A stretch of 59,088 nucleotides of DNA, counting the filler, from Sluysia triapertura (Eukaryota): the NCBI GenBank assembly GCA_046118255.1. It is 5 parts of 5 records of this genome, joined end to end, with 100 filler letters (N's around TTAATTAATTAA, not from the genome) between each part and the next. Parts side by side here need not be neighbours in the genome. Positions count along the whole stretch, not along the records: positions 23,040 to 35,554 come from JBJNIA010101878.1; positions 35,655 to 47,752 come from JBJNIA010139726.1; 3 more parts are not named here. One strand, given 5' to 3'. The notes beneath the pieces are model-generated. The model was not told where the DNA came from, searched no databases, and worked only from the letters and a program-made list of their open reading frames with translations. A program made the position numbers and the translations under genes. The first letter of the stretch is position 1, and every line of letters starts with the position of its first letter. This document shows positions 3,776-54,514 of this stretch, in pieces.

Positions 3776-3938
3776 GTGCTACACACAGATCATCGTTAGG
3801 AGTACTGAAAATCAAAATTTTGGTGATAATAGACTACACTTACATTGCTGACAATTAATATAAGACAGTTTAGTTTAGAATTATCTAACAATTGAAAAGT
3901 AACGGTTAAATCAATCATAAATATTAAAAAATATTGAA

Positions 3939-10875: not shown

Positions 10876-10975
10876 NNNNNNNNNNNNNNNNNNNNNNNNN
10901 NNNNNNNNNNNNNNNNNNNTTAATTAATTAANNNNNNNNNNNNNNNNNNNNNNNNNNNNNNNNNNNNNNNNNNNN
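10876..10975. other. Assembly gap with artificial linker (44 N + TTAATTAATTAA + 44 N); the same at 22940-23039, 35555-35654 and 47753-47852
   Basis: Identical 100-bp construct four times. TTAATTAATTAA gives stops in all six frames. Confidence 0.95.
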
Positions 10976-26289: not shown

Positions 26290-27900
26290 GTTAAAGAAAT
26301 ATTTCACGAAACTAATTGAAATAAATCAAAATGTGAGTTTTTCATTATCAGACCTAAATCATTTATTTGATCACTCGATGGATCAAAGTTATTCTCAATT
26401 ACTGATATCAACCAGACATTTTATCATACAGATTTAAATGAAGTAGATAAAGAGAAAACAGCATTTTTATATAGTGTTGGATAATATTTTAATCGTATGT
26501 AGTTAGGTATATGTACTGCACCAACAACATATCAGAAACCAATGCACCAAATTTTATAAGAATTACTATTAAAACAAATCGTTTACTTATGATTTAAGCT
26601 GGAATTAAAATGGATTGGGAAAAATATCACTTCTACAGAATCAAGTAGCAATTCTTAGGCCATATTATATTGTAAAACATTATTGTGTCTTATATAACAT
26701 TTTTCCAATAACAAATTCATTGTTTATATTAGATATAGATGCTTATTTCTCCAAAATTGGATAAAATATTGTCTTCGTTTTAAGATAGTAACTTCAAAAT
26801 AAATCTTATTATTTATATTTATATTTTAAATATTACTTATGTGCACACGAATTTATTGTAGGATCACATGATACATTTATGTGATCAAAGTAACCTTTAA
26901 AACTACAATTTCGGCCATGGATAACAATTCTTTCTGAATGAAATTCTGAACTTCAAAAATAAGGAAAATATAAAAATACTCATGTTAGAATATTGCAAAT
27001 GATGTAGCATCGAGAAAACAGGTATCAAATACTTAAATTTAATTTAAATAAAGAATAAATTCAATGAATTCGTACAAAATAATAAGGTTTTCATTTTAAT
27101 CACAAAAGTTTAAACAAATCATTATTAAATATTTTTATAGAAAATGACCAGCTATAAATACCAGTAGAAAATGAATCTATTGAAGAATACATTAATAAAT
27201 TTTATCAATAAAGGTGATAAGTAGTAAATCGCTTTGTCAGATAAAAAGTAAATCAATTTAAAAAGTAAATATTAATTTAGGCGAAATAACTCAGACATTG
27301 AAAGTATAAATATTTTTTAGTAATCATTGAATAGTTTAGTAAAGTATTATATTAGAAGCTATTTTAAATAATTTAATATATGAGTTTGGTAAACCATAAG
27401 AACAGTTTCCTAGAGAGGTCGAAATTTTACATAGAATCTTATAAAAATTCTTAAAATTTAATGAATATTTCCATCACTTTTGCAACACAACTATATCCGG
27501 TTGGCAAGAACAATACACAATAGTTTAAACAATTAAATTTGAAAGAAAATTTTCGTGCAATCAAATTTTAGAAAGAACTGAGTTCACAATGAATAGTACC
27601 AAAAGTCATCGGCATATCACTAATGGAAAAATAAAGCTACATTGGGAAAGAAATATAATGACAAAATCCAATAATGTATCAAAAGCTCGTAAAAATATAG
27701 AATCAGGAATAAAATTAGAATTTTATAAAAGCGAAAAAAGAATCCATCGAGGTTTCAAAGTTGGAAATTTAGTAATGGTTTAAATAACCCTAAACTAGAT
27801 AAAACAGAAATGCGATATGAATGTCCACACAAAATTATATATTTTATATAAACATCAAGTGTGTTTAAATGCCGGATGTGGTAAAATATATTGAAGACAG
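26290..27900 (+). mobile_element. Heavily decayed Ty3/gypsy pol (RT-RNase H-integrase)
   Basis: In order: DLNEVDKEKTAF, FNRM*LGICTAPTTYQKPM (cf. RMPFGLxNAPATFQ), FILDIDA, ANDVASR, EFGKP..GRNF, GFKVGNLVMV. Confidence 0.85.
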
Positions 27901-30050: not shown

Positions 30051-32016
30051 TAAAAAATGATTCTGAATTTTTAATTTTATCATTTTTGCTCCTGCAAATA
30101 TATTTTAGCATTAGTTTTCTTTCAATGTTTATATGAAATTGTTTTTTAGAATTTAATATTTATTTTAAACTTTAAGAATTTAAAAGCCGCTTAAGACCGT
30201 CAAAACCAAAACAACGAAATTGAAACAAACAATTAATCATTTAAAACAATGAAAACTCAAAAACGAACGGTTAATTAAAAGCAAAACAAAAAATATTAAT
30301 CTGACACAGTTCGTATCCAAAATTTTATTACATTTAATTCCAACAACGTTCGATATTATATTAAAATGAACACAGAGAAAATATTCAAAGTATTAAATAT
30401 TTTAGTATCAAAATTTATAGTATCTTTTTCAACAACATTAATACAAACAAAATTACATTTATAATTCTTTCTTAAATATTGTATCCACCTGACAATCAAT
30501 GATAAGATATTTAGAACGAATAAGATATATAGAAACTAAAATTCATTTCTAAGGCTTGTTGTAAGAACTCCCTTGTTCTCCACCATTCAGAGCTAGTTGT
30601 AATCATCATATGAAGAATAAATATAACAAAAATCAGAAAATGGGTTTCATGTTCAAATCGCTCGTCAAACACTCAAAACTGTGTTACAATTATTTTTAGC
30701 TAAAACATTTAACATAAAATTTGTAACAAATATTGCAAGTATAAACGAAGAAATATTAGCAAGGTGTACGCCAAAACTGAGAATTGAATACAGATTTGGT
30801 TTATTTAATGTAAATTTGATTTAAATCAGTGTTCACAATATTTCTAGTTTCAATATGATAATAAATGGCAAAGAAATGGTATATTATAAAAATTAGGACT
30901 GTTATAATAAATGCTTGAAATTAATTTTTGAAATTGAAATACCAAAATATAAATAAATATTGAAAATGTTTGTGTGCTTGAATAAATAATATTAATAACA
31001 AATATTAAATGATTGTTGAATAATGAATTATGAATATAATTACTGAATGGTTAATGAAATATGAATGTTGATGCTGAAATTACAATCAGTGTTATGCTAA
31101 AAAATTGATAGTATGAATAATTTTAGTTTAAATTTTACTGTTTAAAAAATTACACATTAATTTCGTAACAAATTTAATACGTAAAATTTATCTGTAATAA
31201 TTTTGTAATAAATCAATTTAACTAATAAATTCTATACAAAATTTAATAGTAATAATAGTAATTTAATAAAAATAATTTTTTGTACATATTAAAAATAGAA
31301 TAAGTTAAAAAAGAATTACAATAAAGGAGAAAAACGATTTCAGTTTTCGAGTTAAACATAATTTTAATAATCATTTCATAAATTTTATTAATTAATTTCG
31401 AATTTGAATCTATCAAACGACTTGGTATCTACATTAATAAATCATATTCGGCAGACAAATTATTTGATTGTTCAAATTTTCAGAGATTATCGAGCAATTC
31501 AGAATTACCGATCAATTTCCAAACTCGGATTTGACAAATTACATTTTTTAGTTTTCTTTTTTCTGCATTTATTAAAATAAAAAATTAACTTTATTTTAAA
31601 AAAATTATAAACTTTTTTTGTTTTATTTAAAGTTTATAATAATATAATTTAAAATATAATTTTATTTGTGCTTGTTAATAAATATTTGATTGAATCAAAA
31701 ATATTACTTTATAATTTTCTAACTAGCACTTTTATTTTTAAGAACAGAGACAAGTATCGAACTCATTATCCGAAAGATATTAAATAAGTTAAGCACAAAG
31801 TTAATTAAATACAGAGAGAATTTTAATTTTAAAGAAAATATACTATTTTTGTTATTTTTATATTTAAAATTACAAATTTTAAAATTAGAATTAAATGCAA
31901 TAATAATTTTTTTAATTTTTGGACTTTTATTCTCGGCTTAAGGCCGTTAAAAGCATATAACATAAACATTTCAATTGTAGCCGATTTAATTAAAACACAA
32001 CAATAACATAACAAAC

Positions 32017-32268
32017 TTATATTCGATATATAACATTTATATAGAACAAGTTAAACAAAATTAGTAGAACGATATAAAAACCGCTAACAGTTTTGGTTAT
32101 TGATAGTTTTGGACTTAGTAACTTGACGCATGCAGCATAGACACTTATAACGATTAAAAATTTATGGCAAGCAAAGCTCGTATATCGAATAATATTAATT
32201 ATTACATCGCGACAAAAAATAACCAAAAACACCAAAGCAAAACTTACCCAAACATGCCGATGGGGCAA
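32017..32268 (-). pseudogene. Three-segment hydrophobic membrane ORF remnant
   Basis: VWVSFALVFLVIF / FLIVISVYAACV / GFYIVLLILFNLFYINVIY. Followed by the CUUAA hairpin at 31934-31946. Confidence 0.4.
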
Positions 32269-32877
32269 TGAACCGCGAATAAAACTAAGTCTTGTTAATA
32301 ATAAACTTGTAAGTTCTGCTAAATCCGCAAAAATTCCTGTCTGCTTTTTACATGTAAATATATTCTTATTTTACTGGAATGTCTTAAGCTTATATTAATT
32401 ATTTCAGCTTTAGGAAAAAATTACCTTAATAGCTTATAGTTATAGTTATAGTGATTGTAAAAAATACTTTATACTCGTTTCAAAAATGATAACATTTTCA
32501 TTACTGCAATCAAGGTAACCTACGTATAATCCACTTTTAGTATTTATATGGTTATTTTCGGATGACGTACATTGAAATTTTATATCAAATATTGTAAATT
32601 CGAATAAGATGGAAAAATTACGAGAATGTATTTTTGAAACATAGTAGTACTGAATTTAGTAAGTGTATTGAGTTGAGTTTCACTCCCGAAAAACATTTTC
32701 TTTTGATAACCTCTTGCACTTATTTGGTGAATCAACAACATAAAGAACATTTAGGACAATAAAAACGTAGATGCACGACTTCATCAACAGTTTAATGTTC
32801 ATAGTAAACATGATAGTAAATTTTTTAATTATTAATTTTTTTATCATTATATGAATCAGAAGTCGAAATTCGTGTTC

Positions 32878-32955
<78 letters not shown>

Positions 32956-34174
32956 TAAATTTTAGTTTCTGTATTGTTATGATTATTGTGACTGTATTGT
33001 GAATATATGTTGAATTTGCGTTGTTGTGTCATGTGAAGACTGTTTCTGTTTTATTTATGTCGTTTGTTGATTTGATATTTTGTATTAGATCGTGTTGAAG
33101 TTTGCTTAATATTTTATTTGTGAGAAATTAGTTGGATTGTGTTGATGTTTGCCTGTTTGTGTTTATGATCATGTTTTTGCTTTGAGCTCACTACGCGAAT
33201 GCTTAACAATATTTGACGCCTTTTGATATCTCTTATCACGCATATCCTTAGACCAAGGTAAATAGTATTTATTAGAAAATATTCAAATTTTGAATGAATT
33301 GAAATTTAATTTAATAGATTTTCTTGAGCATAAATAAATTTCATTTATAAGACTATTATTGTTATGAATCATGACATGAAATTTATCGTTGTTGCTGTGA
33401 ACTTATATTTGTCAACGTAACTTTGATATGTTAAAATTTCATTTAAAGCTTCGTTGATAAAAATTTTCACTTATGATTAATTGAAAACTGTACGAGCATT
33501 TACTTTAAGTAAATTGGTTATAGTAAATCATAATTGAATTTTAAATTTAAATACTATTATAGAATGGTACTTCATAAGAATATTGATATGACTATTTATA
33601 TTAAATTGATTCATAATTACTTTATCATTTAGTGATTCAGAAAGCTGACCATATTTTATTTCAACCTCAACACCACATTTACAGAAGAGTGAGGAATTTA
33701 TTTCATAACATTTTTCATCTGGAACTTTATTCATAATGAAAATTACATTGATTGGGAATAATAGAATCTTTACGTTGACTTGAGCTATTTCAATACTGAA
33801 CAGTCGTAATTGTATCGTATAGTCTATTAACTTCAGAACAAACTAATATATTTTTAAAATCGTCGTTAAGACTAATAGAACGACTCGGTACCATAACCTT
33901 TGTCACTAATCGACTCTTAAAATTATGATCGAAATGTTTGGATATATTGAATTTCGTTGTAACATGATCTTGAACTATTATATCGAGTGTACGAGTGTAT
34001 CATTATTACGGTACCTTAATTTGAAATGGCTTTCTAATTTAGCTATTTTATACTTAACAGTGGCTTTAATATAGATACAACATTAGAATCAATCAATGGA
34101 CTGTATGATTTTAAAGATTTTTATGAGTTTGAATCGCGCAGCATAAATTTTGCGTGAAATCTTGATGTGATGTA

Positions 34175-34280
34175 AATCACAATTATCATAGATAATAATC
34201 ATAAATAATAGAATCACAATTATCATAGATAATAATCATAAATAATAGAATCACAATTATCATAGATAATAATCATAAAT
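34175..34280. repeat. 37-bp tandem repeat x~2.9
   Basis: AATCACAATTATCATAGATAATAATCATAAATAATAG starts at 34175, 34212 and 34249. Confidence 0.92.
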
Positions 34281-34887
34281 GGTAGATTGCTTGTCCTTTC
34301 AGAAATGGAAAACTTTCATAAATATTAATTTCAGTGGTTTCGTTGAATATCTTATGCGTCGATTTCCTATAGTATAATTGAATAAGTTTGCTTCAAAGGT
34401 ATAAATAACAATAGGTTGATTTTCTTGATTACATCTACCATTGACTTTAATAACGTTTGGATTATAATTTTTAATATCCAATAAAAGACGCAGATTTTCT
34501 AACTCAATATTGAACACAATTATCCGCAGTTTCGCAAAATAAATTTAGCAATGTAAGACAAATTAAACATAAAAACTCAACGACAAAGATTTGAAAAAAA
34601 TCTCAGAAGTTCGAACTTACTTGGAAGTGCGGTAATTAAATATTTTGATTTAATATTTTTAATTAGGTTGAACCAATGGAATAGAAATTGACAACTATTG
34701 TAGCCAATCCACATTTCATTAGACAATTAAGAAAGTCACTACGCAGTGACTAAATTAACTGAGTTTTCCACAATAGTGAGAACAATAATATTGATTATTT
34801 TAATTAATAATATCGGTGGTAACTACCAACATTATTTCATGATTATATTTATTATTATTTTAGTTTGTATTTTGATATAATATTGAT

Positions 34888-35502
34888 TTATAAAATAATA
34901 CATACATACATATATGTTGTGGGCGTTATTAAAGCTATTAATTTACGTAGTTTAACCTTAGTTGAACAAAAAACAATTAAAACAAAGCTATTTTTATTTA
35001 TTTTGTTATTATTTACTAAAATGGGCTTAAGGCCCAGAGTTATTAGAAATAAACAAATAATTAAAGTAATTGAAGACATAACAAGATTCAACAACATTAT
35101 GTTATTTACAAAAAAATGTATTAAATAAGATTCTTTTAAATATAAAATGAACAAATAACAAATAAAATTTTCAACGATTAACACAGCATGCGTACCTTGT
35201 ATTAAATAGTCCATCGATTCTTCTTTTTCTGCTTTATCTACACCTTCCAGACTTCCATCGAGGGAATCATCATCTATGGGTGAAACGATGTCGTAAAGTA
35301 TCCATTTTGTAATTTTCGTGAAATATAATGTCAAATAGACGAGGAAAATACCAAATATAATTGATAATTGATGATGTGCCGTAATTGTACCACGAAATAA
35401 CGTTTGAGAAGTTTCTGCCAAATATACTGATGCTATAACAATTGTCAACATAGCATTTATATATAATATAGAACGATTTATGTAGAAAAACATTATATTC
35501 AT
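34888..35502 (-). CDS. 204-aa multi-pass membrane ORF of unknown family
   Basis: Longest ORF in the window. About four hydrophobic helices with an acidic loop (PIDDDSLDGSLEGVDKAEKEES) that is unlikely in random AT-rich DNA. Confidence 0.45.
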   Translation of the reverse strand: MNIMFFYINRSILYINAMLTIVIASVYLAETSQTLFRGTITAHHQLSIIFGIFLVYLTLYFTKITKWILYDIVSPIDDDSLDGSLEGVDKAEKEESMDYLIQGTHAVLIVENFICYLFILYLKESYLIHFFVNNIMLLNLVMSSITLIICLFLITLGLKPILVNNNKINKNSFVLIVFCSTKVKLRKLIALITPTTYMYVCIIL

Positions 35503-35654
35503 TTTTACGAAATTTAAAACTGTAAATGAACCAACAATAACTCCAATAAAAACANNNNNNNNNNNNNNNNNNNNNNNNNNNNNNNNNNNNNNNNNNNNTT
35601 AATTAATTAANNNNNNNNNNNNNNNNNNNNNNNNNNNNNNNNNNNNNNNNNNNN

Positions 35655-36031
35655 GGATACTATGAAACTATTAATCAAAAGTGTATAAAAACATTGTCAC
35701 GGAAAATGCAAAATGTTGGAAAATAACTACTGTCTCCAAAAAATTCTGGTGAAATTAAAATAATAGATAAAAATACTGAGATCCAAAGCTTACAGAAATT
35801 TTATTCATGTAGGTAGAATGATAACACAAATAATTTCCTGATCATTAAAGGCAAAAGTATTTGATCTCGTCATCGTGATGCCATACTTTGATCATGGTGA
35901 TTGATGTATGGGTAGAAACTCTCCTTTTGACAATCTACCACAGATTTTCTATGGGATTCATGTCTGGAGAGCAAATATTAAGAAAACCAAAGAAAAACAT
36001 TTTTCCCGTTTTAGTCTAATAATTTGTTTGG
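35655..36031 (-). mobile_element. Tc1-family deleted element, copy 2
   Basis: Reverse complement of 18349-18830 (TCTCCAGACATGAATCCCATAGAAAATCTGTGG). Truncated at the gap. Confidence 0.9.
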
Positions 36032-36320
36032 TTTTATATAATTATACTTGATTGAAATAATATATTTATTTAAAAACTTTACTAATAAAATTAATTTAAA
36101 TTCATTAAAATCTATTATTGCAAATTGAAAACAATAACTAAAAATATCTATATTAATTAAAACTTTATAAAAACTGAATCTTTTTACAGATTGTCCTAAT
36201 TTTTTTGAAGATACCACGTAATAAACTTCATACGGTTCTCTTAAAAAAGTTCGGCATAGAAAATAGTCGAAGTTAATAAAAATAAAGAAAAATAGAAAAT
36301 TACTTATGGCTCGTCGTGTA

Positions 36321-36584
36321 TTACGGGGTCCAATGGAACGTTGATGCGATTGCCATCGATAGTTTTAGTATCTTAAATAGATAATTTTTCCAAATGTAAT
36401 ATGCTTCCAAAGGTTGATAAGAGAGTTTGCATTCTCTTGTAGTGATCATTATCATTTGACGAACGACTAATAGTACATTGCATTCGAAAACTCCATGACA
36501 ATATTTGCAATTCTTATTATATCTGGAGCATTCTCCTGTTTCAGTTAATTGGTATAAACAAAGATCTGTTTTCTCGACACTCAC
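36321..36584 (-). pseudogene. CCCH zinc-finger ORF (element copy B)
   Basis: KTDLCLYQLTETGECSRYNKNCKYCHG has the same C-x9-C-x6-C-x3-H spacing as copy A. Confidence 0.65.
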
Positions 36585-37356
36585 TATAATTTTTCAGACA
36601 TTCTGATCGTTTACAGTTACATTCCTTATGATGCAACTTTTGTCGTTGTCCAGAACCTATTTTAGGTACAAATGACATTGGATCTTTATTCAAAATCCTC
36701 AACAGAGGTGACGAATGATTTTTTCATGAATCAAATTATTCATACGATTGTTGCAGTTATAATTGACACATAATTTATCTCGAGCAGAACATTCACAATA
36801 TAACTTTAAACAATATGATTTTTGTATAAATATATGGACTTTCATGATTATCAAAAACAGAATCAATTTGATTAAGAGTTAATAATAATACAATAGAACA
36901 ATAATTTCCATTCATTTGCTCGAGTTTAACAATCTTTTCATTCTGAGTAACTTTAGTGGTTTGAATTTCCTTCGTTCTGGATTTTTGATTGTTGCATGAT
37001 TCTTTATCATTTAAATTAGATAATATTCGTTTTACAGCTTGTATCATTAAGATATTGTAAATAAATTAAAAAATATTTAAATAGATAAGCACATAAAAAG
37101 GTAATAATATTTCTTTACACGATACTTAATATAAAACACAAATTGCTTTATAATTAGCTATCATTGGGCATCCAATGAGAAAAAGATTATAAATATACCA
37201 AGAGTAGTAATGATTGGATGTCCAATCGAAATGTAAGGTGCGAACAAAAAGGTAAATGTATCCCTGTGTACTTGTAAATGTGTGCCTGTCACCATAGGAA
37301 TTTCAAAGTTAATGATTACAAAATGTGAAATGGTGACAGGTGATGAAGTTTTTTAA

Positions 37357-37587
37357 CCTTTATCGTACGCTATTTATATTGATTTGTATTACCTGCCGGA
37401 CGGAATTAATTTGCAAAAGGTGTGATCAGGTGCAAATATTTACTTAAAATAACATAGCTCACGTACTATTTACACTAGATTTATGAAACGAAAACGAAAT
37501 TAAAGAGAATGGAATTTTCTATATTCCTATAATTCGGCAAACGAGTACAAACATTGGTTAATATATTAACCATTCGTACGATAAAGG
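37357..37587. mobile_element. piggyBac-type MITE, 231 bp
   Basis: TTAA-CCTTTATCGTACG ... CGTACGATAAAGG-TTAA: perfect 13-bp TIRs with TTAA target duplication. Confidence 0.9.
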
Positions 37588-37679
37588 TTAATAAAGGTCT
37601 ATCAAGACTAACAGAAACTAAATTAAAATTTTTATTAATAACGTTGAGACAATTAAGAATGATGATAATAAAAAATAAT

Positions 37680-38381
37680 AATAATGATATTAAAAATTAT
37701 AATAAAGTAAATGAATAAAATAAAATAATAATATTAAAATAAAACAAAATAAATGCATAACTTGTTGTTCTTTTCACACAATCTTTCTTTTGTTACTTTT
37801 TCATTGTTCTTTTTAAAAAAATGAAGTTTTCTTAATATGGTTCTTTTAAAGATCTTTAAAAAATTTTAGTTTATGAAATTCTTTTTAATAAACCAGAAAG
37901 AAAATGATAATGATAATAACTGAAAATTGAATAAAAGAGATAATACTAAAACACAAATTTTTCTTCATAGAAATCTGATTCTTTCATTTCGAATAAAAAT
38001 TTATTAAATAGAATTCCTTTAATTATGTCTGATTATCTTTTCAAAGTCTAAGAAGAAGTAAAATAATAATAATAATGACACGCAGTTATAGATGTTAAAA
38101 GAAATTCCGTTTTGGTTTTGACGTGTGAATTTACTGTTTTTCAATGATATTAATGATTGAATGTTGAAGAATTATGAACTTTAAATGTTTTGAATCAATT
38201 TTGAAATGTACGATTGAAAATTTTAAATGTAAATTATGATTTTATTGTTATGAAACTGTGAACTTAAAATGATCTAAAGTATTGACAATTTTAAATAATC
38301 CTAAAAGAATTGAATTATTGAATATTCTGAAGAGTGGTTTTTATGTCTACTGTTAAGTTAAAATTTTAAGATATTTGGTTG

Positions 38382-38385
<4 letters not shown>
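37680..38385 (-). repeat. Strand-skewed periodic tract, copy B; further partial copies at 30930-31150 (-) and 53500-53760 (+)
   Basis: Shared units such as GTTTTGAATCAATTTTGAAATGTACGATTGA...ATGTAAATTATGA with 42240-42480. Confidence 0.7.
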
Positions 38386-38412
<27 letters not shown>

Positions 38413-38417
<5 letters not shown>

Positions 38418-38709
38418 AAAACTAACCTCTGTCTGGCCCTGTGCATTATTTTAAATTCGGGCCCTCATACATCAAGAATTATATTTGTAATGAATAGTGT
38501 ACATATTCAAAAAGTATATAAAAAATAAAAACCAAACAGCAAATACATGGAAGAAGAAAACTACTTTAAGAATATCGTCAGCATACATAAATCGGCCAAG
38601 CAGTTTATTTAATAAGCAGGTAAATTTAATTAGTCGTTTAGATTAGATATGTGTTGTTCTTTATGGGAGAAATTTCATTCGTCGGCCCACAGACCTAGTT
38701 ACGGCTCTG
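38413..38709. mobile_element. hAT-like MITE next to a (TA)n run
   Basis: Right end GGCCCACAGACCTAGTTACGGCTCTG. Degenerate left end GCCAAAACTAACCTCTGTCTGGCCC...GGGCCC. Confidence 0.55.
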
Positions 38710-39049
38710 AAATCATTAACTATCTAAGATTAGTTTATCGTGTGTTCGAATTATAATATGTTGTATAAAATTACAAAGCATTGAAAAATCGAAGTCACAC
38801 TTTTATCAATGATTAAAATATTTTATGCTATACTTAAGTCAATGTAATTTTAATTGTTTTTATAAAACATTGTTTGATTAATAATTAAAAACTATTAGTA
38901 TTGTAATTGTAACTGCTTTATCCCATAACTTTATTAAGGTATGTAAAGAAGGATCAATATTAAACATAATTAGATTATTAAGTGCTACTTACATTAATGT
39001 TTTTTATACTTTCATCGTACCGAATATTGCTAAAATGTCATGGCAACTG

Positions 39050-40740
39050 TTGTGTCTAAGAATGTGATGTTGTATCATCGAGATTGTGTCGATTTATGGA
39101 CAATGGAAATTCCTAAAAATACAAATACAGCAAATATATACAAAGAACATACATAGACCTTGTAATGCGACACGCTAACATGCTAATTTTATGAAGTTGA
39201 TTGATCACATTTATAAATCAAATTACTTACATTAAGGAACTACATACGATGTTTCTCTGGAGGATAATTATTATAAATATAATTACCGAAATTATAATAA
39301 TGATAATAAATGAAAATTAATCAAATATGAAAATAAATTAACCGGACTTTTATAGCTATAATAATAATTATAATTATAAATATAATTATAATAATAATAA
39401 TCTTAAGGATATTTGCAATGTTTTATTATTATTTTATAATTTTGTCATACAATTTCATTAAATGTATACATATATAGGGTAAATGTATATTCGCTTGTGG
39501 AAGTCCATTCGAGCCAGTTCAGTATGGATATAATTATTTAGTACCTAGTCAATGTAACAATTCTTATATTTTCCCAGGAGTGGCACTTGCTATAGTCATG
39601 TTTAAAATTCGACCGATTACTGATGATATTTTTATTACAGCTGCTAATGTTAGTATTATATTATTTACTAATTTCCCTGTCTTTAATATCCGAGATTTTC
39701 TTTCCGTGTTCCTTCGGGAATTGGATTTATTATTTATTATTATATTACATTCAAGTAAAGTATTTCAACAAATTAATAAATAATTTTTCTAAAAATCTAA
39801 TGTATTATATGTAAATAAGCATTTTAAACATGTACGGATTTTTTAATGTTTGATTAAAACATTTAATATAAATTTAAAGGGAAAATTTGAAAATACGAAC
39901 CTTTTTTAAAAATTTGGAAAACATTAACTTTTTCTTCAAAATTGGACAAATCTTTCATTAATTGTCCTTAAATTTGACATTATCTGATCAAATTCTGCTT
40001 CTGAAAATGTATTCGCAGCTCTTCAAAAATGATTCATAGCATTCGCATCTCTAAATTTCAATCTTAAATTTTTAGCAATGTGCCTTATACAGTATGAGCT
40101 TGATCAGTTTGGAGCCATTGATTGCAAAGCATTTAGAATACCCTTGTCTGTGTCTGAAAATATTATTACATCAGGTGAATTCAAAGAAAAGTTAGTATTG
40201 TCCAATTTTGAAAAAAAAGTTAATGTGTTTTCCAAATTTTTAAAAAAAGTTCGTGTTTTCCTAATGCCCCTAATTAAATGAACATTATTTAACATATCGC
40301 ATTATGAGCGAGACAAGTATTAGTACCTGATTCGTGGGCTGTCAATTAAGAGCGGGCGAGTATTTATATCATTTGAAAAGTATTTCAAAATGTGCAGTCG
40401 AGGAGTTCAATTATAATTGAAATAAGTATTCATTCTAAGTATTCGTAGTTTGAAATTTGAAAACTCCACCTTTTACTAATATTATTGTTCAATTTCTCCA
40501 TTATGTGGTAAATTTCTTTCTACAGTTGATAGCTTATAAATGATTTTAATATATGTATTATCGTAATAATATGGTCAATTTCATCTATTTATTAATTTTG
40601 GTAGTTGTGTTTGTCTCCCTTTTTTTACTTATATTTTAATAAAATCATGTTTTTTTGTACTTAGGTGCTTCTGCCTAATATGTCACCTTTACTTCTATTC
40701 TGTGTTTAATGAATTCTATTTTTGTTTTATATATTTCTTG
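39050..40740 (-). mobile_element. Mutator/MULE transposase pseudogene
   Basis: PDVIIFSDTDKGILNALQSMAPN*SSSYCIRHIAKNL (cf. ISDRDKGLxNA...CxRHI). Possible SWIM remnant (MLACR) near 39170. Confidence 0.85.
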
Positions 40741-40818
40741 AATTAAGATCAGAATTTAATATTGCAAAACGACTGAAAATATTAAGATACTTTTATTTTA
40801 CGATTTATTACGAATATA

Positions 40819-40848
40819 CAAGGTGTCCCAAAAGTAATCGAACCACAA
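40819..40848 (+). mobile_element. Tc1/mariner left TIR, same family as 13450-13995
   Basis: TA-CAAGGTGTCCCAAAAGTAATCGAACCAC matches the reverse complement of 13969-13995. Confidence 0.75.
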
Positions 40849-41199
40849 ACTTAAATAAAAATTAGATATATTATTGTTTACATAATTATTAAAGTCAAAT
40901 ATTGTTTTGAATATCACAATAATAAATGAGTGTGCTATATTTAGAAAGTCCATAATATACTTTCTCGCTCTTTTTCTTGTGTGTCTAAAATGGCAAAAAA
41001 CGCCTCCTTATGTATTATAGCCAAAAATTTAATTGTTTATAATTAAACATAACTTGTGAATCAGAATCATCATTAACAAAGGCCAATACTTTAAACATAC
41101 ATGTTTCATCAATATTGTTGTGATTTAGAATAGTTTAATTCACTAAATCATTTTAATTGATTTAAAAATAGGTTTTTATAACAATATTTTTTCTTAATT

Positions 41200-41880
41200 T
41201 TTAAAACTTTTATTCCTAAGTTAATATTCATCGGATCTAAAAATAACAATGAATTTAGAAGTTTACAAATAATGAACGAAAATCTGTAAACACAAAACTT
41301 TTTATTCAACGTATAAAATTTAAAAAATTGATCATTTAGGAAGATTATTATGTTACTCTCGATGAGACACGCTTCGCTATCTAAAAAGGAAACAAAAGTT
41401 AAGTTGTCTTTGATATAATAATAAAGAAAGTTTACTTTATCACAACCAATAGATCCAACGTTGTCGAATATCCCTGAAGTTGTTAGTCCTAAACTTGCGA
41501 ATAAGTTTGTTTCCGGGATGTATATTCGAATCTATCATCCAACAACTGATTTATGGTGTACACATGTACACAATTAAATCAAAATTTTGTGCATTTGTCA
41601 TTTCGGTCACTAGTATATGGGCAAAGTGCTCTTTTAAGATATAGATTTGAACTTCATGAATCATTGAAATAGTTGTGTGGAATTGAATTGATCGCAACCG
41701 AAGAGAATGACATTAAGTTCTTGAATCTATAGTTAAAACGTTGTCGTTTATGAGTATCAGTATAATGGTATACCGAACATATTCCAAATATTTTTTACAT
41801 TCATTTTTGTCCTCTGTATTTAACTGAGATAAGTTAATTCGTAAAGCTTTAGGCTTGCATTTATCGTTATTATCTTAAAA
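41200..41880 (-). pseudogene. CCCH zinc-finger gene remnant (element copy C), absent from the ORF track
   Basis: 41629-41543 reads ALCPYTSDRNDKCTKF*FNCVHVYTINQL and aligns without gaps to copy A MLCPYKSNLNGQCLRFGTTCRFAHNINQL. Confidence 0.75.
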
Positions 41881-42800
41881 GATGAAATTAATGATATCAA
41901 AAAATGATAATTATAATAGTAATAATTAAAATTAAATAAGCATAAAATAAAATAATGATAATAGTAAATTAGCTAAAACATAAATTCCTTTCTTTATCTT
42001 AATACATGAGCTCTCTAAATACAATAACATGATCTTTCTTTACTTTAATTTTCTTTTTTCTTAACATATTATGAAATAAATCGTTTAACTTTATGTTTTA
42101 AGATAAAATTGTTTTTTAGTTCTTGATGATTGGAATGTTTACAATGGTTTTAGAGTCATTTGAAGTGTGAATTTGATGTTTTTCAAAGGTGTTAAAGAAT
42201 GAGTGTTGACGATTGTGAAATTGAAATATTTTAGGTTGTTTTTATAATGTGTATTTGATAGTTTAAGATGTAATTGTATTTTTAATGTTATTAGATAATG
42301 ACTTTAATGTTTTGAATGAATTTTTAAATCTAGATTGATGGTTTTAGATGTAAATTGTGGTTTGAATGGTGAAAGTTTGCGAATTGAGCTGTTTTGAATA
42401 ACTTTAAATTGTAGATTAATGGTTCTGGATGTAATTGTGGTTCTGATGTTATGAATTATAGGTTAAAATGTTTTGAATAAAATTTAATGTGTGTTGGTGG
42501 TTTGGGATGTCGATGTAATTTGGTGTAATAGGTTTGTAACTCAGCATATATTGAAATAAGAATATATGAAAAAAGGTTTTCATAGAAAATAGTTAGGATG
42601 TTATGTAATGTGAGATGTGTTGAATTGAATTTAACATGTTTTAGATTAATTTTTTAAGTGTGTAATTGATGATTTTCGGTATAAAATGTGAATTTAATGT
42701 TATGTAATTTATATTTGGAATGTTTGGAAGTATTGTGAAAGGTGATTTTGTTGTGAATTTTTTTTGAGTTGGTCACCACAGTAATGAATTACACAATTAA
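41880..42800 (-). repeat. Strand-skewed ~78-80 bp periodic tract, copy C
   Basis: Repeating unit TAGATTGATGGTTTTAGATGTAAATTGTGGTTTGAATG...GTTTTGAATAA near 42250, 42330, 42410 and 42490. Confidence 0.75.
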
Positions 42801-42949
42801 CTTTTTTGAGTTAATTAATAGATATTTTAATGAGTTATTTTAATAGTTTAATTATCAAAAATTAGTGATTTTAAGGAGAATATTATGTGGCATCTGTTAG
42901 GTACGGCCTTAATAAAAATAAACTAACGAATAATTTTTTTTAAAAAATA

Positions 42950-45900
42950 AGTGAATTCTCGAAGATCCGGTTCCTTTGGATTGAAATTTATCAAATTTTA
43001 CATCAGGAGTAATGGTAAAATCGTATTCTGGAAAAATTGTGTTAACTAAAAAATTGTATTGTTTTTAGTAGTTTTTACAGTCGACCTTGACTTACAAAAG
43101 TGAAATAATTTAAATAAAACAATATTAATAAATTAGAAAATTATTAACATTTAAAAATAAATAATTCAATCCAATGAAACTTTTAAAAATCATAAAATAA
43201 TCATAAAAATATATCGTAAGATTAATAGATTTAGTAACTTTAAAATCAATAAAAATCCATATTCATGTAAATTAAAAGTCAGTACACATTTATATTCAAA
43301 GTCAATACCAAATTAATAACATATACACACATTACAATATTAAATTCTTAAATATAATACTTACTCTTTATCAAAATTTCCTTTTTTGTGGTAACAAAAT
43401 TTTCGTGTTGTAGCAGTATACCAAGAGGTCAATGCATAAATATGTTAATGAATGTGTTAATAATTGAAACGAGTACACAAAAATACTTCGAAATAAAAAG
43501 AAATTATTTGAATTAATTAAAATTAATTTATTAAAATGGGACTTATGGTCCATGCTTATTGTTTTAGATTGAAAATGAAAAGTAGACTTAAGGCCTAAGA
43601 TTGATTTCGTTTATTGCATTACAAGTAAAAACAAATACTAAATATTAATGTGACATCAGAGTTGGATTCTATTAATCGTAATAAAAATACCTCATTGTAT
43701 ACTATTTTCAGAAACTTTAGAATTTATTTATAGTTATGCGGTAAGCTAAACTACTGTTATGATTAAATTTATTTAAAATAACCTTTAATCTTAAAATTAC
43801 TGTTGACGTAAGGCCTGGTGAACGTCAAATTTTAAAGGGTACTTCGTGCATGTGAATAATAATGTTTTCCTCGTTGTCTTCTTACAGCACTATATTTATG
43901 TGGATATTTTCCCTGCTAGGTGAATTAAGGTTCTATTTCTCGGGAGTTCGTGATGACGGAAGTTGATGAAGTGCAGCAATGATAAAATTCCATTCAAATT
44001 GTTTTTTGAAGATGGAAAATTAATTGATGTTAGTGTAGTTTATGTAGTGACATGGAGAAATCTAAGCGAGTATATGGAAAACTAGGAAAGGTTAGTCGAA
44101 AAAATTGATGTCATGATTAGGTTTTTGACGGAAGAGGCACACTTGTCCATGCACCATATGCGTGATAAATGAACCGGTCATTGACCTGTATTGTCGAAAG
44201 AACAGATTCCGATGAATTTGGAATATTTCTTTAAAATTTTGTTCGCGTTGGAGGACCGGGAAATCTTAGACGATGCACTAAGATTTGGTTGATTTGCACA
44301 CAGTTTTTTTGTCACAGGGTTTTTAGTTGTTTGAGAATAGGCGATTTTGTTTCCTGATCTTCTTTTACTTGATAGTTGGTCTTTTGTACAAGCAGATTTA
44401 TATCTTGTGATATGTCAATATCACCAGGAAGCTGATGCTTAATTTGGACTATTGAGCCTAGATGCAGTGGCAATGATGTGCGCATTTACAATTCGTCTTT
44501 GTAGTTAGACATCCCATGAATGATGGTGATTTTAGAAGTAGGCTTCACATTCCTGATAATATGCAAAGCACACTTGACACTTTTGATCCGAATAAGTTGA
44601 TCATTGTACTGATGTGGGTTGGTTGATTCTTTCGTCTCAAAAGAATATAACTTACCTTTTCGGAAGTATCCTCCCTTTTACGCGCCTGCAAATAAGAGAT
44701 TAGTATTTTATACGTTCAGGTTTCTGAACTAAACAGCAGATTTCGGTAAACTTGATTTAGTAGGTGTACACTTTTCGATAACCTTAGGTTCGGTATGAAA
44801 CTCGTTGAAAGTTGATTGAATGGTATGCTGAACCCGAAAGTGATTTTTCGTGGTTTTGTTTGGAGATCGTTCTAGGCGAATAACTCATTTTGAGTCGTAG
44901 CAGGATTGAAGAGTGTAGACAAATATTTCCTAGTTACATAGCTATTTCTTGAAGATTGACATTCGACCACGTGATTTCTTTGGACAATCGATAAGGATGT
45001 TATTCAAGAAATGAATTAACTTTAAGCCTCATGCGATAAGGTCTTAAAAAACCAATCATCAATACCGTTTAGCATTTTAAGGTCCATAATATTATAAAAA
45101 TATAAAATAAAACACTTTAGGCACTCAAGAAATAAACTGCGAGTTTAGGGTTTTGTGGTTTACAGATGATGACTCTAAATAATTATTATTACTATTTGAA
45201 AATAAAAACTTTATTTCTTTGTTTAGGTATATTATCGGTGAGCAGTTTACTTCACCTAGGTTTACATTATTATACATCAAGGATTTATTTAATTTGATTT
45301 ATTGAATTGCAAACTCTAACTCTTACTATTAAGTTATTGAGGGCGACATACATTATCCTATCTCTTTTTATTTCAAAATACTCAAGATTTTCATTATCAT
45401 ATATACATCTATTAATTAAAGAATTATTGAACACACAGAGACTAATATTTATTAAAATGTTAGAAATTTTAAAAAAATAGTTAATAACTTTAGGAATTAC
45501 ATGGATCATTTTATTATTTATCAAAATCCTTCGCACTGCATCTTTGGGTATCGCGTTGGACCTATAGCTGGAACATAATTCTAAAAAAATTATGTAGTTA
45601 AAATAACAATAAAAATAAATAAAATAAAATTTTACTGAATATATTTTCTTAAGGTTAATGTCTTCATCTCCATCTTCATCTTCAGCTGCGACAAAAACCA
45701 CAATTCCATTTTGTTAGTTTCTAGTTTTGTATTGATTTCGCCGAAAATGTAACCGGAACTTACGATGATTTTGTGCCTTTTTATACTCATTACACTGAAC
45801 CTTAGGAAATTTTGGAAAACTTTGACATCTCTTCGACTGAATGGATACTGCTGTTGATTAACTTTATTATCTGATCGTAATATTCCGCTTAAAATAATAA

Positions 45901-47500
45901 TAGTCTTTTAGAATCACGTACAAAACACACTTTGCCATATTACTAGTCGGTTTATCCGTTTCTACATATATTCTTTTAACTCTATATACATCTTTAACGG
46001 GTTTATCTATTTCTAATTTTGTTCGTCTAACTTTATATACATTTTTAACATATTTAATAGGCAATCCACTCACTCGCAAAAAATCAAAACAAGTTATTTT
46101 GTTTTAGAACAATTTTTTAGCAAGAATAAATTTTAAAAACATTTAGTACGACGTACAACATGTAAGTTGATCTTATTGCCATTTGAAGCAATATTTATGG
46201 CTATGGAAATTTCTTTTAATAAATTTAAAATTTCAATTTGGAGTTTTGTGCTAAATATTTCATTTTAATCTCCTAGTAGAAATTGTACAGTAAAACAACT
46301 TCCAGAAAACGAACTTCTAAATTTGTAATATTTTCTCTAACTTGATTATTTTTGGTACGGAATAGAAACAATTCAACTTACGTGGATGTGCATAACTCCT
46401 TTAACTCCTATTTTTGCCTCTAAAATAAAATACAGTGTCTACCTTCTTCCATAAGTTGAACTTCTTCAAATTTGAAATTTTCTCACTACTTATTTTAGAT
46501 ATAAAATGGAAATAATTCTTTATAATTAGACCAAATAGTTTCTATGTCCTGCGTGGCTAAGTGAAATCAGATATTCATAACATAGATAAGTGACACACCT
46601 ACCCGGAACAATTCATCAGATCGCTCACTGATAAAATTTTGAGTTCGAAAAATGTTGTTCCACCAAAATGAATCAAAAAATATAATCAAAAAGACAACAG
46701 TCTTTTATTGTTAAAAGTAATTTAATTAATTTACATTTTATTTATTAAATTTATAAAAATAATAAAAATTTATTCTATTGATAACTATAATCAATTAAAA
46801 TATGAAAAGAAAAAATTAATAAAGAATTATTTATCCGATGATATTAATTCTTTTTTATCATTTTCGATATTTAATTTGTTGTTTGTAGTATCACTGTCAC
46901 TAGAACTATCTGATCCATCGTCACTGTGCTTGTCCAATTGTTTTTTCTTCCGTTCTACTGTTTCTCCAGTTAAATCGTTTTCATTCGATGCATCCATAAG
47001 CATATTGTTAGGTAATGCTTCTTTTTTCAAATTGGGATTTAAATTATTATCAACAAAAATTGGACTATATTTAGTATGAAATTTGTTATTTTGTAATCGA
47101 CAACATATATTTTTGCAACATTGATCAATTTCGACATTAAACAAACGACTGCAGATTGTTACCATTATCATAGTCAAAATCTGAATTAACAAAAAACAAA
47201 ATTTATATTACTTTTATCTACTCTAGACAATAAGTAGATGAAATAAATAATAAAATAATAATTAAATTCTATATTATTTTGCTTTTCTGTGTTTGTGTAT
47301 TTTATTTTTATTGCGAATTTAAATGAAAGATAAATTAATGACAATTAAATAAGATTTCACATAAAAAGAACTTATTGGATAACGAAAATGTGGAGTGTTT
47401 TCTGGTTTTAATTTCAATTGATCTGCAAATATTGTCTTCATTAAAATACACACTCCTTCCATTTTTAAATTTCTTAGTCGATGAGATGCATTTTCGTACA
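42950..47500 (-). other. Decayed minus-strand multi-ORF block upstream of copy C
   Basis: Visibly higher GC at 43800-45000 with long interrupted frames. ORFs 45285-45701, 45867-46079, 46827-47192 and 47319-47501 are all on the minus strand. CUUAA hairpin at 43583-43597. Confidence 0.35.
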
Positions 47501-47616
47501 CATTGTTTTCTTCAATTGTTGGTCCGTAACATTATAACAAACTGTCCATAAATAAAATATATTAAAACAAAACGATTCAATAAAAAATCAATACTTTCTC
47601 TATTTTCTATTTAACC

Positions 47617-47752
47617 CAGTGGTGTCAAACCTTTTTGCTTTACGGGCCACTTGATACAACGGAAATCTAACGGATGGCCGCTATGGCAAAAGTCAAGTAA
47701 ATTTATCAAACTGAGAAAAAGATGTACAACTACAACAGCAAATATTTATTTC
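47617..47752 (+). mobile_element. hAT (Charlie-like) MITE left end, truncated by the gap
   Basis: CAGTGGTGTCAAACCTTTTT...CGGGCCAC terminus. Confidence 0.65.
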
Positions 47753-48976
47753 NNNNNNNNNNNNNNNNNNNNNNNNNNNNNNNNNNNNNNNNNNNNTTAA
47801 TTAATTAANNNNNNNNNNNNNNNNNNNNNNNNNNNNNNNNNNNNNNNNNNNNATAACGGAATCTACGTAACATTATCATTTAAATTTGTTACAATTGACA
47901 TATAATTAAATTTCTAAAACATTTACCTCCAGAATTAAGGTGTTAGGTAAAATCGCTATAGTCTAAAGTCAAGCATCTTTTCTTACATTAAAATCCAACG
48001 GCTGGACCTCGCTGGTATGTCCAGTACGTTGATGAACTCACGTTAATTTTAATTTTAATTTATTCTTTAACAATCATTTCTTACAATTGTATAATTAGTT
48101 TGGTAGAGAATATAACTGAAATTAAATCATATTTTGTTGTATGAATTTTTAATTATTTAAAATTAACTCAGTGTTACATTAAAGTATTTAAAAGACATAA
48201 TTCTATGTACAAAATAGCTTGATTGTACATAAATGAGTATAAGTTGCGGAATATAAGTAAGTTTACATAAATATAGATGTGAATGTTCAAAGAATTTATT
48301 TTAACTAATTAAATATCAAATGTTCTCGATCCATTATTATTCATTTTTTCAACAAAATGAGTAATTGAGCAATAATGAAAATAAAGATGTATTCGGTAAA
48401 TGGTTAGTTGTTCACATAATTAGAATTAGCAAAATTTGGAATGTTATATTGATCAATGCTATTGTTGTGTCTTATAAAATTCTTCGATTTAATTCATTTT
48501 ACTCTATAATAACTTCATAATCAAAATTCAATAAATTAAAATTATAGTGCTAGTATTATAATTTAACTAATCGCACAATTATCAATAATAATATTCAAAC
48601 TAAGCAGAACAATTATAAATTGTATATAATACAAATAACTATTGAACAATCAATCTTCGTATAATATTGTTAATTAGGCAAATCATTCGATAAACCAAAG
48701 GTGAGGAAACCAAAAAAATAGAAAAAGATATCAAAGGGTAGAATTAAAAGGGGATTTTATCCAAATAGTTCAAAATTCAATTTCCTTTTAATAAAGTTCA
48801 GAAAAACTAAACAGACATTTTTATTAAATAATGAAACAAAAAATTATTAAATATATCGATTTATAGATATTTTGTTAATTAAAAGCATTGTTTAACGACT
48901 ATGAAAACAACCAATAATATTAACATTAATTTTCAAATAAATTTTACAGGAAAATTAAATAAACTTATAAAAGTAA

Positions 48977-54002: not shown

Positions 54003-54514
54003 TAAGGTGGCCAAATTATTAGAAACATTAGAAATATGTTTCTCGATGATCATGGTGTTAAGCTGCTACCCTGGTCTGGAAACTCTCCGGACATGAAACC
54101 CATAGAAAATCTGTTGGAGAGTTTCTACCCATAAACCAACCACCAGGACGGAACTTATTGAAACCTGATAAAAGTATGGCATCACGATGACGAGATCAAA
54201 GATTTGAACCCCTAGCTCATCCGTGGGTTACCTTTAAGAATCAGGAAATTATTGAATAACAAAGGAGAGAAATAAGTACATATTTGATTTGTAGTAAATT
54301 GTGTTATGAGTAAAATTTCTATATGTTTTGAAACTCAGTATTTTTATCTATTATTTTAGTTTAACCAGAATTTTTTGGAGAAAGTAGTTATTTTCCAACA
54401 TTTTACATTTTCCGTGATAAGTGTTGGTAAATGGCATGTATTTATACACTTTTGATTAATGGTTTCATAGTATCCTTGAAAAATGGTCTTTAGTCTAATA
54501 ATTTGGCCACCAGT
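54003..54514 (+). mobile_element. Tc1-family deleted element, copy 3, both TIRs
   Basis: GGTGGCCAAATTATTAGA ... TCTAATAATTTGGCCACC. Internal LLPWSGNSPDMKPIENL. Confidence 0.92.

What the first reader, a model, noticed from the sequence alone, without database searches (positions are those of the whole stretch)
30187..43597. Recurring covarying stem-loop with a CUUAA pentaloop downstream of successive minus-strand coding remnants
Seen on the minus strand: UAGGC-CUUAA-GUCUA (43597-43583), UGGGC-CUUAA-GCCCA (35036-35022), CGGC-CUUAA-GCCG (31946-31934) and degenerate CGGU-CUUAA-GCGG (30199-30187), plus a CUUAC variant at 43804-43816. The loop is fixed while the stem changes in compensated fashion. 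The G-U pair at 43.6 kb works only on the minus strand, which is the coding strand. Lower stems extend past an internal loop (e.g. GCUUUUA/UAAAAGU at 31.9 kb). Each copy is a GC-rich spot at or just after the hydrophobic or coding part of an ORF. Inference: a gene-end, processing or protein-binding RNA signal punctuating a multi-gene element. The element's own CCCH protein is a speculative candidate reader.
Basis: partly seen in the sequence, partly recalled or inferred. Interest (0 to 1): 0.85.

Follow-up and report, generated by a model that had tools for sequence, protein, structure and literature searches.

The report
Small hairpin before poly(A) signals
In an AT-rich animal genome, a short GC-rich hairpin with the loop CUUAA recurs five or six times just ahead of a polyadenylation signal among decayed, same-direction genes; it is probably, not certainly, a real and so far unnamed gene-end signal, and nothing found links it to the nearby zinc-finger proteins.

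Summary
All five sites are at the stated coordinates, on the minus strand. Recurrence alone is ordinary once motif choice is corrected for: comparable four-copy groups arise in 576 of 649 shuffles. Adding pairing makes it rarer, from 29 of 304 to 0 of 189 depending on the statistic. Only one pair position shows true double-sided change among the five; lower stems are not conserved. The best new support is positional: AATAAA follows within 56 nt in 5 of 5 (background 13%), and a stop codon sits at the same offset in 4 of 5 (152 of 20000). A covariance model found no significant new copy; one candidate (43551-43539, E 1.2) carries a compensated pair and an adjacent AATAAA. The copies are not on one contiguous element: an assembly linker and a host exon lie between them. 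Flanking proteins found no homologues; the CCCH-reader idea has no support. Best reading: an mRNA 3'-end cis-element of a decayed accessory-gene array of an unidentified mobile element (0.45). Chance remains possible (0.25).

The parts
43804..43816 (-). Variant copy AGGC-CUUAC-GUCA at the end of the GC-richer coding remnant; stop TAA at 43799-43797; AATAAA at 43773-43768
   Evidence: hairpin not in MFE fold
43583..43597 (-). Copy UAGGC-CUUAA-GUCUA (one G-U); no stop at the shared offset; AATAAA 50 nt downstream is shared with the next hairpin
43539..43551 (-).
   Evidence: covariance model E 1.2, not significant alone; 4-bp stem folds; such a hairpin occurs in 91 of 1500 shuffles
35022..35036 (-). 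Copy UGGGC-CUUAA-GCCCA; stop TAG at 35018-35016 (not in the frame of the long ORF); AATAAA at 35002-34997 followed by a U/GU-rich stretch
   Evidence: (z -3.2)
31934..31946 (-). Copy CGGC-CUUAA-GCCG with lower stem; AATAAA at 31931-31926, which contains the in-register stop TAA (31929-31927), so these two features are not independent here
30187..30199 (-). Degenerate copy CGGU-CUUAA-GCGG (G-G mismatch); stop TAA at 30182-30180; AATAAA at 30164-30159
   Evidence: hairpin not in MFE fold
34888..35553 (-). Intronless multi-membrane ORF (221 aa, cut by the assembly gap) holding a sugar-porter TM4-5-like piece; contains the 35.0 kb copy
   Evidence: Pfam Sugar_tr E 2.5e-5; XylE/GLUT E 0.006; atlas 0.87, lead only; no homologue
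32017..32850 (-). Decayed hydrophobic ORF with in-frame stops, upstream of the 31.9 kb copy
   Evidence: no homologue among 1.84 billion representatives
30180..31430 (-). Hydrophobic coding-like fragments in several frames upstream of the 30.2 kb copy; weakest coding evidence
   Evidence: no Pfam family
43797..45000 (-). GC-richer (35-38%) stop-poor coding remnant upstream of the 43.8 kb copy; identity unresolved
   Evidence: no hits
35555..35654 (.). Assembly linker (N44-TTAATTAATTAA-N44) separating the two groups of copies
39478..39648 (+). Intact host malic-enzyme exon with AG/GT borders, between the two groups of copies; not part of the motif, bears on the one-element claim
   Evidence: Pfam Malic_M E 1.3e-17; borders read; only such exon among 118 plus-strand ORFs scanned

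Best explanation
The hairpin is an RNA cis-element at the 3' end of transcription units. Shown: a 4-5 bp GC-rich stem with a C-U-U-A-A-like loop, on the strand of the decayed ORFs, usually followed by a stop codon two codons past the stem and by AAUAAA 1-50 nt past the stem. Inferred: each unit is or was a separately polyadenylated mRNA from a densely packed, same-direction, intronless accessory-gene array of a large mobile element or endogenised virus-like element, now decayed; a protein reads the loop (fixed sequence) on a stem whose base needs pairing but not sequence, and so licenses or strengthens cleavage and polyadenylation at that AAUAAA, or stabilises or exports the mRNA. In a 75% AT array full of chance AAUAAA such a second mark would tell true ends from cryptic ones.
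For: All five listed copies on one strand, the strand of the stop-poor frames. AATAAA within 56 nt downstream 5 of 5 vs 13.1% background (22.1% for 100 nt, p 5e-4); any hexamer shared by five random windows 60 of 20000; upstream 1 of 5; control GC-rich 11-mers 8 of 66; family-wise five-member group with AATAAA 1 of 77 shuffles. Same-offset stop 4 of 5, look-elsewhere 152 of 20000. Three WC pair types at the outer position, family-wise 0 of 189 when combined with rarity. Candidate sixth copy, found by the model and not by AATAAA, has a compensated pair and AATAAA 5 nt away. Gene-end hairpins with conserved motifs are reported for invertebrate iridovirus (PMC5923455, passages).
Against: Only 5-6 copies, all from one window; recurrence alone is not significant. 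Two copies do not fold as drawn and 131-nt folds are not better than shuffles. For the four main copies alone the shared stop is not significant (3 of 4; 1780 of 20000), and at 31.9 kb stop and AATAAA overlap. The 35.0 kb copy lies 48 codons inside its ORF, and that same frame stays open 32-74 codons downstream in 4 of 5 copies (592 of 20000 for 3 of 4), which fits a coding position rather than an end. The 56-nt window was set after seeing the data. None of 15 other ORF ends examined has a clear copy. No hallmark gene of any element and no homologue of the flanking proteins. No transcript data.
Confidence: 0.45

Rival explanations
1. Chance. In 75% AT DNA any few GC-rich self-complementary words stand out, and the extra regularities were found by looking for them among five sites.
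For: Four-copy groups in 576 of 649 shuffles, with a loose hairpin in 347 of 649; 29 of 304 and 25 of 304 under score and clustering tests; 81 of 189 on rarity alone; the model finds no significant held-out copy; flanks share no similarity; copies are split by an assembly linker.
Against: AATAAA was named by the gene-end hypothesis beforehand and is present 5 of 5 (1 of 77 family-wise); outer-pair statistics 0 of 189; all copies on the coding strand within 13.7 of 59 kb.
Confidence: 0.25
2. Retroposition tag. The hairpin is a 3'-tail stem-loop read by a reverse transcriptase, as the GGAUA pentaloop of eel UnaL2 is; each ORF-hairpin-AAUAAA unit was copied and inserted head to tail, giving the same-direction array.
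For: Pentaloop on a short stem above an internal loop at a unit's 3' end matches the UnaL2 design (PMC1636434, passages); intronless ORFs with host-derived pieces; A5-A7 runs 11-20 nt after AATAAA at 31.9 and 30.2 kb (read by eye); Terminons form such arrays (PMC6431247, section 8).
Against: Units mobilised by one tail should share more than 11-13 nt; flanks are unrelated. No reverse transcriptase found. U/GU-rich genomic sequence follows AATAAA at 35.0 and 43.55 kb where a poly(A) tail would be expected (by eye).
Confidence: 0.12
3. DNA-level or intermolecular signal. GG(C)CTTAAGCC is a palindrome with one extra base; it could be a binding or recombination site read as extruded DNA, or a kissing loop through the self-complementary CUUAAG.
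For: CTTAAG is intact in the four main copies; the 35.0 and 31.9 kb copies fold about as well on the plus strand.
Against: The two variant copies lose the palindrome (CUUAC, CAUAA) but keep stem and AATAAA; the downstream features are strand-specific; no recombinase found.
Confidence: 0.08
4. Translation-level signal. The hairpin lies in coding sequence and acts at a stop: pausing, recoding into the frame that reads G-L-K, or termination-linked control.
For: One frame stops five codons after the first G in 4 of 5 copies while the neighbouring frame stays open 32, 74, 48, 38 and 8 codons.
Against: No shared slippery heptamer upstream (contexts, by eye); first downstream ATG is 29-166 nt away; open-frame excess is only 592 of 20000; sequence after the hairpins is very AT-rich.
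Confidence: 0.07
5. Remnant of hammerhead ribozyme stem II from Penelope-like elements.
For: At 31.9 kb the stem is followed by GAGA and preceded by one unpaired C, as in minimal hammerheads (PMC4209133, text parts 1-2); the 43.8-45.0 kb remnant looks Penelope-like by eye only.
Against: No intact CUGANGA core next to any copy; no hammerhead in Rfam at gathering score or at E up to 10; the pair that should be an invariant G-C is the one that varies.
Confidence: 0.03

Closest known systems
Invertebrate iridovirus IIV-6 3'-end hairpins with TAATG/CATTA motifs (PMC5923455, passages)
   Same: Hairpin with a conserved short motif at the ends of many genes in AT-rich DNA, proposed to define transcript ends.
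   Different: Those hairpins are 22-56 nt, the motif is in the stem, and they replace poly(A) signals; here the conserved part is the loop and AAUAAA follows. No iridovirus core gene was found.
Mimiviridae 'hairpin rule' for polyadenylation (PMC4402537, start of abstract and passages)
   Same: Hairpin tied to polyadenylation at gene ends in an AT-rich genome.
   Different: There the palindrome is itself cut and tailed by viral enzymes; long stems without a fixed loop (recalled). Here a 4-5 bp stem with a fixed loop precedes the host-type AAUAAA.
UnaL2/ZfL2-2 LINE 3'-tail stem-loop (PMC1636434, passages)
   Same: Pentaloop read by a protein, upper stem, internal loop, at an RNA 3' end.
   Different: Loop GGAUA, followed by UGUAA repeats and shared as a whole tail; here loop CUUAA, followed by AAUAAA, flanks unrelated, no reverse transcriptase found.
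Terminons, giant Penelope-like retroelements of bdelloid rotifers (PMC6431247 section 8; PMC5408684 passages)
   Same: Many same-direction accessory ORFs, including membrane proteins, with a recurring RNA motif.
   Different: Their motif is a hammerhead next to telomeric repeats; hammerhead core not met here.
Burro giant gypsy-like LTR retrotransposons of planarians (PMC6431247 section 7)
   Same: AT-rich host, captured host domains, accessory ORFs, decayed copies reported; composition here is planarian-like (my inference, host not identified).

Membership tests
Any Rfam 15 family | Match at gathering score | tested here: not met
   0 matches in the window; 11 sub-threshold matches at E up to 10 in 28.0-47.75 kb, none over a copy
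Minimal hammerhead of Penelope-like elements | CUGANGA box 5' of stem II and GAAA 3' of it | tested here: not met
   20 CTGANGA sites in the window, none beside a copy; GAGA after one copy only
Minimal hammerhead of Penelope-like elements | Conserved G10.1-C11.1 pair at the stem base | tested here: inconclusive
   Outer pair varies A-U, G-C, C-G; the next pair is G-C in 4 of 5
Penelope-like element / Terminon | PLE reverse transcriptase or GIY-YIG domain | tested here: inconclusive
   By-eye resemblance at 44.1-44.7 kb from recalled motifs; no Pfam or homologue hit; frames are broken, so sensitivity is low
Burro LTR retrotransposon | gag-pol polyprotein with BIR/BCL2/MATH/SMC domains | tested here: not met
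   No such Pfam family in the ORFs and frames scanned; coverage of 23-47.7 kb is large but not complete
Burro LTR retrotransposon | Long terminal repeats flanking the array; similarity to Burro accessory ORFs | not testable with these tools
   Segments are about 12 kb; no long direct repeat in the self-comparison; no eukaryotic genome collection on hand
Iridovirus 3'-end hairpins | Absence of poly(A) signals; TAATG/CATTA in the stem | tested here: not met
   AATAAA follows 5 of 5 copies; stems are GC-rich
Mimivirus hairpin rule | Polyadenylation inside the hairpin by viral enzymes | not testable with these tools
   Needs transcript ends; no viral core genes found
Stringent LINE 3'-tail stem-loop | Whole 3' tail shared among copies, ending in short tandem repeats | tested here: not met
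   Similarity confined to 11-13 nt; no tandem repeat at the sites
Canonical metazoan poly(A) site | AAUAAA on the sense strand downstream of the coding end | tested here: met
   5 of 5 within 56 nt vs 13.1% background
Canonical metazoan poly(A) site | Cleavage 10-30 nt past AAUAAA in transcripts | not testable with these tools
   No RNA data
Helitron 3' terminus | Hairpin about 11 nt before CTRR, with shared terminal sequence (recalled) | tested here: not met
   By eye on contexts: CTAA 15 nt after the 43.6 kb copy only; flanks unrelated

The most novel reading that the evidence does not exclude
An undescribed giant mobile or virus-like element of an invertebrate carries a row of captured, intronless genes, each closed by a hairpin-stop-AAUAAA module that a dedicated protein reads to choose true 3' ends, or that marks each gene as a movable cassette: a structured punctuation code laid over host polyadenylation.
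Probability: 0.12. Interest if true: 0.8.

Novelty: new variant of a known kind. Interest (0 to 1): 0.42.

Why it matters
If real, it is a sequence-specific hairpin working together with the ordinary AAUAAA to mark gene ends in a multi-gene selfish element. How giant invertebrate elements express rows of accessory genes is not described in the passages I read, and a 13-nt tag would give both a handle to find and delimit the parent element genome-wide, even where its proteins have no database match, and a simple reporter test. If it is chance, the region is only a decayed gene array of unknown origin.

Tried and rejected
Protein searches that found nothing: the 221-aa membrane ORF, the BTB-like region on the first segment, the 277-aa decayed membrane ORF against 1.84 billion representatives, a 78-aa piece of the GC-richer remnant, the 142-aa ORF at 45.3-45.7 kb in the atlas, the calpain-like ORF against PDB sequences. 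Single-sequence folds were low-confidence (pLDDT 41.8 and 47.4); the one fold search gave no match under E 0.001. The three membrane ORFs show no similarity to each other, so shared ancestry of paralogues does not explain the motif; a conserved G-L-K peptide is rejected because third codon positions are fixed on GC-rich codons. The second statistic was flawed (no penalty for unpaired members) and was replaced. Covariation controls (7-8 of 500; 5-12 of 500) are not counted as proof because the rows were picked for being hairpins. Hammerhead, Helitron end, iridovirus hairpin and LINE tail were tested and not met. tRNA anticodon arm, histone stem-loop, U12 branch site, baculovirus TAAG promoter and spliced-leader resemblances were considered from recall and dropped for lack of their other features; they were not run as tests beyond Rfam. 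Literature: four spellings of the 11-mer occur in 12 papers whose titles are unrelated (listing only); none of 30 listed papers for CUUAA with stem-loop terms contained CUUAA (30 of 119 listed). The original Burro paper and a 2026 Burro1 paper were not held, so a prior description there is not excluded. Viral and metagenome contigs stayed unchecked; the prokaryote genome scan was not used, as the window is eukaryotic.


Full report
Setting. The window is 25% GC eukaryotic DNA with AAT microsatellites and spliced host exons (protein kinase C2 domain, malic enzyme, C-type lectin, mannose-6-phosphate receptor). It consists of five segments joined by N44-TTAATTAATTAA-N44 linkers. The look is planarian-like, but that is my inference from composition; no call names the host. 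Three copies (30.2, 31.9, 35.0 kb) lie on the segment 23040-35554 and the others (43.6, 43.8 kb) on 35655-47752; whether these are neighbours in the genome is unknown.

Observation. The five sites are exactly as written, on the minus strand, and they are the only independent sites within two mismatches of GGCCTTAAGCC. Among the five, one pair position changes on both sides (A-U, G-C, C-G, C-G; unpaired in the fifth); the rest is invariant, wobble or broken. In 61-nt folds the hairpin forms at 43.6, 35.0 and 31.9 kb but not at 30.2 or 43.8 kb, and only 35.0 kb beats shuffles (z -3.2). At 131 nt none of the five does. Lower stems exist at 35.0 and 31.9 kb but with bulges on opposite sides.

Is it more than chance? 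The fitted pattern gives 4 against 0.12 expected, but it was chosen from the data. Asking instead how often any motif does as well: four-copy groups of GC-rich 10-mers arise in 576 of 649 dinucleotide and 549 of 584 trinucleotide shuffles; hairpin groups of equal score in 29 of 304, clustered within 14 kb in 25 of 304; equal sequence rarity in 81 of 189. With pairing added: two all-GC stems with one loop of five or more bases in 6 of 328; three Watson-Crick types at the outer pair in 15 of 189, and together with rarity, or with a G-C outer pair, in 0 of 189. So recurrence is unremarkable and the pairing is suggestive; these tests were built after seeing the motif.

Independent positional test. 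It is there in 5 of 5 copies at +29, +50, +19, +1 and +21 nt, against 13.1% of 56-nt and 22.1% of 100-nt windows on that strand; upstream it occurs in 1 of 5; any hexamer shared by five random windows occurs in 60 of 20000. GC-rich 11-mers as control give 8 of 66. A five-member hairpin group all followed by AATAAA within 100 nt arose in 1 of 77 shuffles, groups of three or more in 51 of 77. A stop codon sits 16-18 nt from the first G in 4 of 5 copies (152 of 20000 with look-elsewhere; for the four main copies 3 of 4, 1780 of 20000, not significant); at 31.9 kb it is part of the AATAAA. Base skew shifts from T-rich to A-rich across the sites (p 0.028); the GC drop is not significant (p 0.078). 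Against a clean gene-end reading, the frame reading G-L-K stays open 32, 74, 48, 38 and 8 codons downstream (592 of 20000 for three of four), the 35.0 kb copy is inside a 236-codon frame, and none of 15 other ORF ends examined shows a clear copy.

More copies. A covariance model from the five scored them at E 1e-4 to 4e-3 by construction; the other 18 of 23 hits had E 0.41 or worse. One of them, 43551-43539 (E 1.2), is GGAC-CAUAA-GUCC, with G-C replaced by A-U and AATAAA 5 nt on; a hairpin of that description appears in 91 of 1500 shuffles. I count it as a probable sixth copy; it shares its AATAAA with the 43.6 kb copy. With it, two pairs change on both sides, but rows were selected as hairpins, so the shuffle counts there are not proof.

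What surrounds it. The minus strand from 28 to 47 kb carries many stop-poor, apparently intronless remnants: a multi-membrane ORF with a sugar-porter TM4-5-like piece, further hydrophobic ORFs, a weakly calpain-like ORF (E 0.035), a gene with two TCR domains and one Unkempt-like CCCH finger, a second CCCH gene at 41.1-41.9 kb related to one at 3.9-5.5 kb, and a GC-richer remnant at 43.8-45.0 kb. No gag, pol, capsid or polymerase family was found, and all homologue searches were empty; broken frames and low complexity limit these. An intact opposite-strand malic-enzyme exon at 39478-39648, the linker and a Tc1-like repeat interrupt the run, so a single contiguous element from 43.6 to 30.2 kb is not supported; two or more insertions of related elements are more likely (inference).

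Mechanism. Most likely (0.45) the hairpin is an RNA mark of true 3' ends: loop read by a protein, stem base kept by pairing, followed by stop and AAUAAA. Rivals: chance (0.25), a retroposition tag like the UnaL2 pentaloop (0.12), a DNA palindrome or kissing loop (0.08), a translational signal (0.07), a hammerhead remnant (0.03; no core beside any copy). The CCCH reader has no support: single broken fingers, absent from the segment with three main copies, and Unkempt is reported to bind UAG (PMC12136788).

Comparison with known systems. It works like the gene-end hairpins of invertebrate iridovirus and Mimiviridae, and resembles LINE 3'-tail loops in shape, but fails or cannot be tested for their defining features; no Rfam family matches. 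Papers seen: PMC6431247 (passages, sections 7 and 8), PMC4209133 (text parts 1-2 of 4), passages only of PMC8532177, PMC11410931, PMC8557442, PMC5923455, PMC4402537, PMC5408684, PMC1636434, PMC13465017 and PMC12136788; no supplements or figures. Searches for the motif in print found nothing relevant in the listings, but the two main Burro papers were not held, and supplements there could bear on novelty.

Verdict. Observation partly confirmed; interpretation partly supported; probably a real, unnamed 3'-end motif (about 0.7 real), resting on five or six copies from one window. New variant of a known kind; interest 0.42, up to 0.8 if it proves to be a punctuation code of a new giant element (probability 0.12).

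Noticed in passing
10876-10975, 22940-23039, 35555-35654, 47753-47852: Four identical N44-TTAATTAATTAA-N44 linkers join segments of about 12 kb; adjacency across them is not guaranteed.
   Followed up: partly
2590-3250 (+), 42780-42100 (-), 38385-38050 (-): Three related tracts almost free of G on the sense strand (3-6% G), each starting near a TGG(C/T)-CCAAC-like word and each lying upstream of a CCCH-finger gene. A repeated unit arguably as interesting as the hairpin.
   Followed up: partly
3921-5529 (+), 41900-41150 (-), 37065-36011 (-): Three broken genes with one Unkempt-like CCCH finger each; one has a weak BTB match upstream (E 0.007), one has two TCR/CXC domains upstream. No homologue for the BTB-like part.
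   Followed up: partly
35553-34888 (-): Intronless membrane ORF containing only a TM4-5-like piece of a sugar porter, then an acidic loop and unrelated helices: looks like a captured host fragment.
   Followed up: partly
45000-43800 (-): GC-richer coding remnant; by eye faintly like the thumb and GIY-YIG region of a Penelope-like element (recalled motifs); no tool confirmed it.
   Followed up: partly
27529-27783 (+): ORF ending in FKVGNLVMV, by eye like the C-terminal part of a gypsy-type integrase (recalled); no Pfam support.
   Followed up: partly
30185-30163 (-): A second, AT-rich 9-bp hairpin with a CUUAA loop directly 3' of the 30.2 kb copy; it is the one that forms in the MFE fold.
   Followed up: no
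42910-42893 (-): Sequence right after the stop of ORF 42909-43064 resembles the 43.8 kb copy and its 3' flank (about 14 of 17 bases by eye); possible decayed seventh site, no AATAAA, not found by the model.
   Followed up: partly
1671-1686: Perfect 16-nt GC-rich palindrome about 0.9 kb upstream of the G-poor tract on the first segment; GGCTTAAGC lies 25 nt further on.
   Followed up: no
29292-28855 (-): Weakly calpain-like ORF (Pfam E 0.035) behind a good splice acceptor; host exon or captured piece, undecided.
   Followed up: partly
18352-18850, 35655-36026, 54006-54485; 39864-40301; 56601-56792: Tc1-like repeat in three copies (one at the linker edge), a MULE-like fragment with a short inverted duplication, and a DDE_1 fragment.
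   Followed up: no
34175-34285: Exact 37-nt tandem repeat, about three copies, inside a coding remnant.
   Followed up: no
47207-46827 and 46103-45285 (-): Two stop-poor ORFs of unknown family: one Cys-rich then acidic, one with an EDEDGD stretch; no Pfam or atlas hit.
   Followed up: partly
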